64,000 nucleotides of DNA from the human T2T-CHM13v2.0 reference genome, Homo sapiens, in NCBI RefSeq assembly GCF_009914755.1, contig NC_060942.1, one strand, 5' to 3'. Positions 17,761 through 21,231 of the stretch are shown here, piece after piece (position 1 is the first letter of the stretch; each line of letters opens with the position of its first letter). Made by a program: the position numbers and the translations under genes. The notes below the pieces were generated by a model. That model saw only the letters and a list, made by a program, of their open reading frames with translations, ran no database searches and was not told the DNA's origin.

Positions 17761-18541
17761 AAAGATAATTCATTAAGCTATCATTTAATGTGGTTTTCTG
17801 TATCTGCATCTTATTTTAAATAACATGGTTAAACTGTTTTATGTGTAATACCAAATTATACGTACAACAGCTTATCTACTGTTAAATTTTTTTAAATTTT
17901 TATCAGCTGTATTTATTGTATAGCATTTGTGCATTAGATCATGTTTTCAAATCTCTGTGACAGTTAGGTTATCTGAAATGCCAGAAGTTAATCTTACCAG
18001 ATTTGGGGAGAAATAAAAAAGGTTTTTGGTTTCTGTTTTGTTATTGTGGAATCTCTCAAATAAATTAATTGTTAGAAAAAAAACTGCAATGAGATACCAC
18101 CACACACCCATCAGAACGACTGAATTTTTTTTAATTAATTAATTTTTTTTTTTCAGACAGTCTTGCTCTGTCACCCAGGCTGGAGTGCAGTGGCGTGATC
18201 TTGACTCACTGCAATCTCCACCTCCCGGTTTCAAGCAATTCTCGTGCCTCAGCCTCCCAAGAAGCTGGGATTACGGGCCTGGCTAATTTTTGTATTTTTA
18301 GTAGAAACTGGGTTTTGCCATGTTGGCCAGGTTGGTCTGGAACTCCTGACCTCATGTGATCCGCCTGCCTCGGCCTCCCAAAGTGCTGGGATTACAGGTG
18401 TGAGCCACCATGCCTGGCCAGAATGGTTAACAATTTTAAAGTTGTTCAATGCCAAGTGTTGGAGGTGTTACTAATGCTAAGGTCATGCAGTGATCAACCA
18501 GCATTCAGGCACATCACTGGTTCAAATCCAAATCGTACAAC

Positions 18542-18927
18542 TTTTTTTTTGGACAGAAAGTAGAATTTATTGGTGAGTATTAAGAGGGGGCAGCACAGTG
18601 GAAGCCCTCATGAGTGCAGGGCCCACCACTTATCCAGAGGGCCACGAATGGGGATGTACTTGACCCCACAGCCATCTGGGATGAGCCGCTTCTCAGCCAC
18701 CATGTCTTCAAATTCATCAGCATTCAACTTGGTGAAGCCCTACTTCTTTGAGATGTGGATCTTCTGGTGACCAGAGAACTTGAACTTGGCCCTGCACAGG
18801 GCCTCAATCACATGCTCCTTGTTCTGCAGCTTGGTGCGGATGGACATGATAACTTGGCCAATGTTAACCCTGGCCACAGTGCCCTGGGGCTTTCTTTCCA
18901 AAGGCACCTCACATGCCTGTTTGGAGC
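18542..18927 (-). pseudogene. RPL10: RPL10 (60S ribosomal protein L10) retrocopy: last two exons, 3'UTR and poly(A)
   Basis: Minus strand gives [50 protein letters not shown] and ...[11 protein letters not shown] (stop 18610-18608). AATAAA is at 18571-18566 and the A tail at 18542-18550. Disablements are a 4-bp GAAA duplication near 18891-18898 and a premature TAG at 18742-18740. Confidence 0.93.
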
Positions 18928-18975
18928 CTACATTGGGGTAGTGCAAGGTCAGAGACATGAACCCCCATCTGAAAG

Positions 18976-19063
18976 GCCTGTCTCCAAGGTCCCTTAGAGC
19001 AACCCATACAAGAAACAGGCTGCACACACTGCCAAGGAAGCTGCTGTTTGCAGCCATTGCACA
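18976..19063 (-). ncRNA. SNORA70: 5'-truncated retrocopy of H/ACA snoRNA SNORA70 (U70); probably non-functional
   Basis: Minus strand TGTGCAATGGCTGCAAACAGCAGCTTCCTTGG...GGGACCTTGGAGACAGGC has an H box ACAGCA (19047-19042) and an ACA box (18981-18979) 3 nt from the end. SNORA70 is hosted in an RPL10 intron, and this copy is contiguous with RPL10 intron and exon sequence. Confidence 0.9.
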
Positions 19064-21231
19064 TGTACAACTTCTTAAAAAAAAAATCTTTTTATTTAAG
19101 AGATGGGATCTCCCTATGTTGCCCAGACAGGACTTGAACTCCTGGCCTCTAGCAATCCTCTTGCCTCCGCCTCCCAAGTAGCTGGGACTATGGGTACCCA
19201 GAGTCAAACTGTAACAACTTTAGAAAACAGTTTGATATTATCTAGAAAGTTCAACGTGCACACACACAGGGACCAGTAATTCCAATGTTAGGTACATGCC
19301 CTCTAGAAGTTCTTGCCCAAGTGCCCTCAAAGACACATACAAAAATAGAACAGCATTGCTCATAATTGCAAAGAAACAACATGAATGGCCACTAAAGGTG
19401 GAATGGATACTTAGATTGTGGTGTAATCATATAATGAAATCCTACTGATTTACATCAACATGGATGAATTTCAAAAATAAAATCTTAAGCAAAGAAACAT
19501 CACAAGATCAAAGTATGACTCTACTTATTCTATTCCAAAAATGATATACTGTTTCAAGATAAAAGCATAGGTGATAACAACTATAAAGAAAAATAAGGAA
19601 ATGACAGAAATTGCAGGAAAGAGAGAGACAGTGCAATCCGAGTTAGGTGTAAGTCTGGAGCAGGGCAATGTGCTGTTTCTTGGCCTGTGTGATGGATACA
19701 TAGGTGTTTGTGTGTATTATTATTTCACAATAAAAACTAAAATAAATGAAGGATAAAGGAGAATGAATTAATACATACACACATCTGTATTTTTTAAAAC
19801 GTTATTGTGCTCCTATAAGCTCTGTAAATTTCCGTTCACACTTAGAAGACAAACTCAGTGTTCTTTAGAACTTTCCTATCGCACTGCAAGGAATGGTTTT
19901 TCAACAAGGCACTGCAGTTTGTTTTGTAATAAATCTTTGTAAAAGGTGAGGAAGAATAAGTTACACAAAATGGGTCAGAAGTGCAAAGAAAAACTAGTAG
20001 AAACATGAGGACTCTTCTAATAAGTCACTCACATATACATAGCCCCAAATCACTCCATTTAGGTTTGTTTGCTTTTTTATTCATTTATTTATTTTGAGAC
20101 AGAGTCTCCCTCTGTCGCCCAGGCTGGAGTGCAGTGGCACGATCTCAGCTCACTGCCACCTCCCAGGTTCAAGTGATTCTCATGCCTCAGCCTCCAGAGT
20201 AGCTGGAATTACAGACCTGCACCACCATGCCTGGCTAATTTCTGTATCTTTAGTAGAGATGGGGCTTTGCCACGTTGGCCAGGCTGGCCTCGAAATCCTG
20301 GCCTTACGTGTTCCGCCTGCCTCCCAAAGCGTTGGGATTGCAAGCGTGAGCCACTGCACCCAACCTGTTTGCTTTCTTTGAACTGGATGGTTATCATTCT
20401 TAGTCCTGGGCACAAAGATTCTTCCAGTTGGTCGATGGACTTTCTTATTTTCACCGGTCATGTGCTGCCAGGTCATAAAACCAGGGATCTTGAAGGCCAA
20501 GGTACGGAACCGCAGCTGCGGCAGAAATCCCCTCTGGAATCTTGTCCTGTCTGAATCCCTCGGGTCATGGGCAGTTCTTGTCAGGGACAATTCATTCCGC
20601 GATTAGACAGGGCTGTTGTTTTACTCAGCAGGCCGACCTATCTAAGGAGACCTGCTTATAGACTCACTCTGAAAATCATGATCCTGTTGGAGAACACACT
20701 GCCTTCCATGGTTTAAAACCGGGCCGTTTAGAGAAAATGTGTTCTGTAAATTTTGTGTGAGAAGGATTTAATTTATTAGCACTTGGTGATTTCACTGATC
20801 CTTTGTAACACTAAGCCTTCATCATCCCACATTTTACATTATAACTAAACAAATAATGATAGTAACATTTTAGAAGCTATAGAGGGGAGGAGAGATTTTT
20901 TAAAAGCACTCACCGAGAAAGAAATCGGCTGGCCAGAGTGTTTGAAAGCTGCTGTACAGCGAGGACCCTGAGGCCAGCCCGGAAAATTTCCTGGCGCTTC
21001 CAGGTTGCTCAGTTCAACAGCCATTGTCTTAAATTATTTTCAGAATAGCCACAAATTTGAATGGAATGTTGGAACTATTGCGAACTGTCCTTAAGAAGAT
21101 GTTCCCAGGGTACGTCTGGTCTCCTTAAACCTTTCAAAAAAGCACGTTTAAACCCCTCCTTTCTTTCTCCTCAGTTTTTGGGTGTGTGCTCTGCACAATG
21201 ATCCCTGATAAGGGATGCTCCTTAAACATTA

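What the first reader, a model, noticed from the sequence alone, without database searches (positions are those of the whole stretch)
18535..19073. Semi-processed SNORA70-intron-RPL10 retrocopy: fossil of a snoRNA-retaining polyadenylated transcript
Seen on the minus strand in order: the 3' part of SNORA70 (19063-18976, H and ACA boxes intact), ~48 nt of intron ending in AG (18929-18928), RPL10 exon sequence from GCTCCAAACAGGC, an uninterrupted ...CAGAAG|ATCCAC junction, the 3'UTR, AATAAA and poly(A). All of it is flanked by the TSD gtacaactt (18535-18543 and 19065-19073). Established: SNORA70 lies in an RPL10 intron, and SNORA70 retrocopies with host exons are a reported class. Inference: the template retained the snoRNA intron while the downstream intron was spliced. 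It was therefore either an intron-retained RPL10 mRNA or an RNA starting at the snoRNA and ending in poly(A), present in the germline; the 5' truncation prevents telling these apart.
Basis: partly seen in the sequence, partly recalled or inferred. Interest (0 to 1): 0.72.

Follow-up and report, generated by a model that had tools for sequence, protein, structure and literature searches.

The report
Dead SNORA70-RPL10 retrocopy, already catalogued
This is a broken DNA copy of the back end of an RPL10 transcript that kept its small-nucleolar-RNA intron, likely pasted in by LINE-1 and likely already listed in print; it is ordinary, except that its front end falls where most other shortened sister copies also begin.

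Summary
On the minus strand: SNORA70 nt 48-135, the last 48 nt of its RPL10 intron, the last two exons joined, AATAAA, a short A tail and a target-site duplication; 484 of 515 columns match the chrX parent.

It is known. Weber 2006 named this class Type-3 snoRNA retroposons (30 of 42 human RPL10 pseudogenes). Luo and Li list a truncated chr18 copy, U70t, very likely this one. A 2025 paper measured the living RPL10-SNORA70 RNA.

The retained intron puts a stop codon 4 nt in, which suggests the RNA is a nonsense-mediated-decay product (inferred).

The copy is likely dead: it lacks most of the 5' hairpin, has no annotated host intron, and its frame is broken. RefSeq's snoRNA model overshoots into flanking DNA.

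One thing I did not find in print: 9 of 10 truncated copies, this one included, begin at nt 39-57, inside the 5' hairpin.

The parts
19065..19076 (-). 5' copy of the target-site duplication: exact 9-mer 19065-19073, probably 12 nt to 19076; preceded on the minus strand by a T run
   Evidence: (family D8)
19064..19064 (-). single base that does not match the parent; untemplated addition or later change
18976..19063 (-). SNORA70 nt 48-135; lacks nt 1-47, most of the 5' hairpin; box H 19047-19042, box ACA 18981-18979
18928..18975 (-). retained 48-nt 3' end of the snoRNA-bearing RPL10 intron, acceptor AG intact
18761..18927 (-). penultimate RPL10 exon (163 nt plus a 4-nt duplication); early stop at 18911-18909, frameshift near 18895
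18551..18760 (-). last RPL10 exon joined directly (75-nt intron absent); internal stop 18742-18740, normal stop 18610-18608, 3' UTR, AATAAA 18571-18566
18544..18550 (-). short A tail; the A run continues into the duplication
18535..18546 (-). 3' copy of the target-site duplication (exact 9-mer 18535-18543)
19098..19202 (-). flanking Alu-type monomer, not part of the element; its tail is wrongly included in the RefSeq/Rfam SNORA70 model (19064-19109)
   Evidence: (family D1)

Best explanation
This is a 5'-truncated, broken copy of RPL10 RNA that kept the snoRNA intron's 3' part and lost the last intron, likely written into chr18 by LINE-1 from a polyadenylated RNA that likely began at SNORA70. 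Shown: the anatomy, the spliced junction, the duplication and the sibling 5' ends. Inferred steps: (1) RPL10 pre-mRNA sometimes keeps the snoRNA intron while the last intron is spliced and the RNA is polyadenylated. (2) The retained intron gives an in-frame stop 4 nt in and 681 nt before the last junction, so nonsense-mediated decay would cut it and a 5'-3' exonuclease would trim to the protein-bound snoRNA (about 0.55; nuclear cleavage about 0.3). (3) L1 ORF2p would prime on the A tail at a T/A-rich site in the germline. (4) Copying or joining ended early at snoRNA nt 48, at the base of the 5' hairpin's upper stem, likely because the hairpin or its proteins block the enzyme or expose the intermediate to cleavage. 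The copy most likely does nothing today.
For: Parent alignment: 484 of 515 columns identical, last intron absent. Of 29 snoRNA-bearing copies examined, 17 have BLAST starts at snoRNA nt -4 to +5, 2 old ones align back to nt 0 across deletions, 10 are truncated inside the snoRNA, none extends upstream. The upstream intron, the last intron and the earlier introns match only chrX. Control: 7 of 10 fully spliced RPL10 copies reach the ATG exon, so long templates do get copied. Stop codon and distances. Weber reports the same class and 5' ends. Long-read 5' ends of such RNAs sit at the snoRNA start, and RPL10-SNORA70 3' and full-length forms were detected by ddPCR. An NMD-made cytoplasmic snoRNA-ended RNA is described for NOP56-SNORD86.
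Against: This copy's own 5' end is lost, so its template is assigned by family statistics only. Full-length retained-intron RPL10 RNA also exists in cells. I found no NMD test on RPL10-SNORA70. For EIF4A1-SNORA67 the mapped 5' end lies at the end of the upstream exon, not at the snoRNA. The cited RNA data come from cancer lines, tissues and plasma, not germ cells. ORF2p is reported as highly processive, which argues against simple stalling. Genome searches left candidates unscored (13 of 53, 5 of 45, 7 of 47).
Confidence: 0.85

Rival explanations
1. The template was a full-length RPL10 mRNA with the intron retained, and the snoRNA structure or its proteins stopped reverse transcription, so the snoRNA-start pile-up is a copying barrier and not an RNA end.
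For: Full-length retained-intron RNA exists. A second pile-up inside the 5' hairpin shows that this region does shape 5' ends.
Against: A barrier should stop copying on entry to the hairpin, not just after leaving it. 19 of 29 copies end at the snoRNA's first bases and 0 of 29 go further. Long-read 5' ends of such RNAs also map there, although those reads may share a reverse-transcription bias.
Confidence: 0.1
2. The snoRNA-ended RNA is made in the nucleus by endonucleolytic cleavage of the pre-mRNA and exonuclease trimming, as Weber proposed, without translation or NMD. This disputes only step 2 of the best explanation.
For: Weber's model; nuclear SPA RNAs form by XRN2 blockage, and an H/ACA snoRNA can substitute; one sibling on C17 has an A tail inside the intron, pointing to a splicing intermediate.
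Against: The retained intron carries an immediate in-frame stop. H/ACA-retaining RNAs are found in the cytoplasm bound to dyskerin. Weber notes that a purely nuclear RNA fits L1 mobilisation poorly.
Confidence: 0.3
3. The nt 39-57 start reflects a real shorter RNA, a single-hairpin SNORA70 end made by cleavage in the 5' hairpin and trimming up to the proteins at box H, and this copy is its full-length fossil.
For: 9 of 10 truncated copies start at nt 39-57; uniform-null P is 1e-4 or lower. They span 1.8-14.8% divergence and this copy shares at most one rare substitution with any sibling. Most junctions show at most one base of microhomology (by eye; the C19:9.9 copy is ambiguous).
Against: Ends are spread over 19 nt, less sharp than the true 5' end. 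7 of the 9 lie within a base or so of the upper stem's 3' strand (nt 38-48), as a copying barrier predicts. No such RNA turned up in searches. SNORA40 copies show a looser spread (P 0.01-0.11).
Confidence: 0.2
4. The locus is a functional SNORA70 paralogue, as the RefSeq model suggests.
For: Rfam score 93.1 bits over a cut-off of 40, boxes H and ACA intact.
Against: nt 1-47 are missing and the model's 5' part is flanking DNA. The hub's gene table shows no host transcript over it. Luo and Li do not mark U70t as folding into the two-hairpin form.
Confidence: 0.03

Closest known systems
Type-3 U70 (SNORA70) snoRNA retroposons, Weber 2006 (PMC1687206)
   Same: snoRNA sequence, entire downstream intron, processed last two RPL10 exons, A tail, duplication; 12 of Weber's 30 are partial, like this one
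   Different: nothing in anatomy; the sections I read do not say where the partial copies begin, and Figure S3 and Table S1 could not be read
U70t, Luo and Li (PMC1802619, Table 1 row 163)
   Same: chr18 near 3.0 Mb (build 36.1: 3015432), 5'-truncated, poly(A)-tailed; this is the only chr18 SNORA70 copy
   Different: listed as intronic, whereas current RefSeq shows no host gene; no liftover was run, so identity is very likely but not shown
RPL10-SNORA70 3'-snoRT, the snoRNA-retaining transcript (PMC12152556)
   Same: the living RNA with the anatomy inferred for the template
   Different: measured in cancer lines, tissues and plasma; 'retro' occurs 0 times in its main text
NOP56-SNORD86 cSPA and the Prader-Willi SPA RNAs (as described in PMC11028025, PMC9394076)
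   Same: 5' snoRNA-ended, 3' polyadenylated RNA; cSPA is made through NMD
   Different: those are C/D-box RNAs with tested biogenesis; for RPL10-SNORA70 the route is inferred

Membership tests
Type-3 snoRNA retroposon | snoRNA sequence at the 5' end, starting at the mature end or truncated | tested here: met
   nt 48-135, truncated form
Type-3 snoRNA retroposon | entire downstream intron kept | tested here: met
   48 of 48 nt aligned to the acceptor
Type-3 snoRNA retroposon | downstream exons fully spliced | tested here: met
   75-nt last intron absent
Type-3 snoRNA retroposon | A tail, target-site duplication and L1-type target site | tested here: met
   short A tail, 9-12 nt duplication after a T run
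Type-3 snoRNA retroposon | empty site in an outgroup genome | not testable with these tools
   no other mammalian genome is held
Functional box H/ACA snoRNA | hairpin-hinge-hairpin-tail structure | tested here: not met
   most of the 5' hairpin (nt 1-47 of nt 3-61) is missing
Functional box H/ACA snoRNA | boxes H and ACA | tested here: met
   19047-19042 and 18981-18979
Functional box H/ACA snoRNA | sense host intron, or shown expression | not testable with these tools
   no RNA data; the hub's table shows no host, Luo and Li wrote intronic
cSPA (NMD-derived snoRNA-ended poly(A) RNA), for the template | premature stop upstream of the snoRNA and far upstream of an exon junction | tested here: met
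   stop ends 4 nt into the intron, 335 nt before the snoRNA and 681 nt before the last junction
cSPA (NMD-derived snoRNA-ended poly(A) RNA), for the template | dependence on NMD factors and cytoplasmic location | not testable with these tools
   needs experiments; none found for RPL10 in searches

The most novel reading that the evidence does not exclude
SNORA70-RPL10 retrocopies record two discrete germline 5' ends, not one: the mature snoRNA start and a second at nt 39-57, where this copy begins. The second would mark either a single-hairpin SNORA70 RNA or a fixed barrier that an H/ACA hairpin sets to LINE-1 copying. The template would be an NMD intermediate, which would answer Weber's puzzle of how nucleolar RNAs reach the ribosome-linked L1 machinery.
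Probability: 0.35. Interest if true: 0.45.

Novelty: already known. Interest (0 to 1): 0.17.

Why it matters
The locus itself matters little: it is a dead member of a class described in 2006. It is a clean case of an annotation artefact, since RefSeq's full-length snoRNA model includes 46 nt of flanking DNA. The family is more useful. Its 5' ends are a natural record of what germline L1 copied, and the nt 39-57 cluster offers a small, testable handle on why L1 insertions are 5'-truncated, which a 2023 paper calls not well understood.

Tried and rejected
Segmental duplication or internal deletion of the RPL10 gene: rejected by the exact splice junction, the A tail, the duplication and unrelated flanks. 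Template switch between a free snoRNA and an mRNA: rejected because snoRNA, intron and exon are collinear with the gene over 303 columns. One truncated master copy behind the nt 39-57 cluster: not supported; divergences range 1.8-14.8% and rare substitutions are not shared. Target microhomology as the cause: not supported by the junctions (read by eye). Exceptional local stability as the cause: not shown; 60-nt windows in the exons fold as well or better (down to -26.4 against -22.9 kcal/mol), so folding energy alone does not explain the site. The automatic duplication finder failed on several old copies, so their 5' ends rest on alignment. The 1e-33 figure assumes uniform truncation upstream and is not used. 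The template carried one extra intron base at the exon junction; borders were corrected. RetroSeeker (PMC11727581, passages) has no mention of SNORA or RPL10. No protein, structure or prokaryote searches were run, as they do not bear on the finding.

Full report
Observation. A search of the window's own genome gave 44 matches from 40 scored of 53 candidates, with the parent split in two on contig C23. In the parent locus L031, SNORA70 lies at 3802-3936 in a 522-nt intron, followed by 48 nt of intron, a 163-nt exon, a 75-nt intron and the last exon. The element aligns in two blocks, 281 of 303 and 205 of 214 identical, that abut across the missing last intron; overall 484 of 515 columns. It starts at snoRNA nt 48. 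The flanking 9-mer occurs twice in the window, at the two edges, and extends to 12 nt with one mismatch. The coding frame has an early stop, a 4-nt duplication and a second stop.

Annotation artefact. Rfam scores 18976-19109 as a whole SNORA70 (93.1 bits), and RefSeq follows it. The part 19064-19109 does not align to parent nt 1-47. It is the duplication, a T run and the tail of an Alu-type monomer. The parent's 5' hairpin spans nt 3-61, with the upper stem's 3' strand at nt 38-48, so the copy cannot form the two-hairpin structure.

Siblings. I examined 29 snoRNA-bearing copies: all 24 non-parent matches, two more loci, and three fetched. One further fetched locus (C11:130 Mb) was a fully spliced copy and was dropped. 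Not examined: three related old copies seen (C9:39.9, C9:43.1, C4:135.1 Mb), a last-exon-only match (C9:95.4 Mb) and the unscored candidates. Seventeen copies have BLAST starts at nt -4 to +5. Two old ones start internally by BLAST but align back to nt 0 across deletions. Ten are truncated. None extends upstream. The upstream 337 nt of the intron, the last intron and the earlier introns match only the parent. In 28 of 29 the last intron is spliced; the other (C17:30.7 Mb) has its A tail inside the intron. As a control, 7 of the 10 fully spliced copies reach the ATG exon. The family template was therefore most likely an RNA that began at the snoRNA; for this one copy that is an inference from the family.

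A second pile-up. The ten truncated copies start at nt 26, 39, 43, 43, about 46, 47, 47, 48 (this one), about 48 and 57. Two of these were set by eye; BLAST gave 55 for the second 48, still inside the range. A query beginning at nt 69 showed no copy starting between there and the exon, other than ragged alignment starts of copies known to extend further (40 of 45 scored). Against a uniform null, 9 of 10 within 19 nt has P of 1e-4 to 5e-6 by the range assumed. Without the secondary copy and the Type-2 copy, 7 of 8 has P of 2e-3 to 1e-4. The nine truncated copies included span 1.8-15.8% divergence (1.8-14.8% for those in the cluster), and this copy shares at most one of its 11 rare changes with any sibling, so the events look independent. 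SNORA40, as a second family, repeats the first pattern: 10 of 22 snoRNA-bearing matches start within -2 to +4 and none further upstream. Its other starts are looser (nt 8-68, BLAST edges, junctions unchecked; P 0.01-0.11 for the six that run on into the intron). That is weak support for generality.

Age. 12 of 490 non-CpG sites (2.4%) differ from both parent and sibling majority, third lowest of 26. The copy keeps older bases at several sites where the two youngest copies match the modern parent. With a recalled primate neutral rate this suggests roughly 15-30 million years; no orthologue could be checked.

Mechanism. Retaining the intron ends the frame after residue 110, with a stop 4 nt into the intron, 335 nt before the snoRNA and 681 nt before the last junction. 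By the established exon-junction rule of NMD (my knowledge) that RNA is a substrate. Cleavage and 5'-3' trimming to the snoRNP would give a cytoplasmic, polyadenylated, snoRNA-ended RNA, as described for NOP56-SNORD86. L1 copying from the A tail is inferred from the hallmarks. The stop at nt 48 is best read as a barrier or cleavage at the 5' hairpin (about 0.6), a real shorter RNA (0.2) or other end processing. Against plain stalling, ORF2p is reported as highly processive, and the hairpin is not the most stable fold on the template.

What is in print. Weber 2006 (PMC1687206; passages and sections 8, 14, 15; the four .doc supplements unreadable) defines Type-3 snoRNA retroposons. It counts 30 among 42 human RPL10 pseudogenes, 18 entire and 12 partial, and proposes cleavage plus trimming. 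Luo and Li (PMC1802619; Table 1 passages and sections 11, 13; supplements not opened) list U70t on chr18 at 3015432, 5'-truncated with poly(A). PMC12152556 (passages, sections 10 and 13; figures and supplements not seen) maps long-read 5' ends to snoRNA starts and quantifies both RPL10-SNORA70 forms. PMC9394076, PMC11028025, PMC10830420 and PMC11727581 were seen as passages only. Searches found no report of the nt 39-57 cluster, and searches 64 and 67 none that ties NMD to these retrocopies. I saw those searches mostly as listings, the library lacks most subscription papers, and Weber's supplements may show the truncation points.

Verdict. A real feature, correctly read, already known as a class and very likely as a locus, and without a likely function. 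Interest 0.17. The residual interest is the second 5'-end cluster and the NMD link.

Noticed in passing
L009/L048 (G000:C12:75.66 Mb) against L007/L034 (G000:C1:201.24 Mb): The C12 copy carries, after its first A tail, the C1 copy's duplication and flank (about 97 nt in all), then a second A tail and its own 12-nt duplication: a retrocopy of a retrocopy, implying the C1 copy was transcribed in the germline. It starts at snoRNA nt 43. Both appear to be listed by Luo and Li (U70n, U70b); I saw no mention of the link.
   Followed up: partly
L054 (G000:C17:30720526-30720658): A Type-2 SNORA70 copy: the A tail is added about 5 nt before the intron's acceptor, and it also starts at snoRNA nt 47.
   Followed up: partly
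window 19064-19109: RefSeq LOC124900407 and the Rfam model extend 46 nt into non-snoRNA flanking DNA; other truncated copies are probably over-annotated in the same way (all 23 SNORA40 matches are reported as model 1-128).
   Followed up: partly
L031:3802-4434: The parent differs from the majority of its retrocopies at 13 sites, including snoRNA nt 2, 42, 53 and 63; these can rank copies by age.
   Followed up: partly
window 18535-19073: The copy lies about 12 kb upstream of LPIN2 and 41 kb downstream of MYOM1 on the same strand as both, with an intact acceptor and poly(A) signal, so it could serve as a terminal exon for read-through RNA. No transcript in the hub's table uses it.
   Followed up: no
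L090/L093 (G000:C7:103.58 Mb): An Alu with its own 16-nt duplication interrupts the snoRNA part of this old copy.
   Followed up: yes
window 386-533, 2785-3089, 39506-39653: The only other Rfam matches over the cut-off in the window are three SRP-model matches, most likely Alu elements.
   Followed up: no
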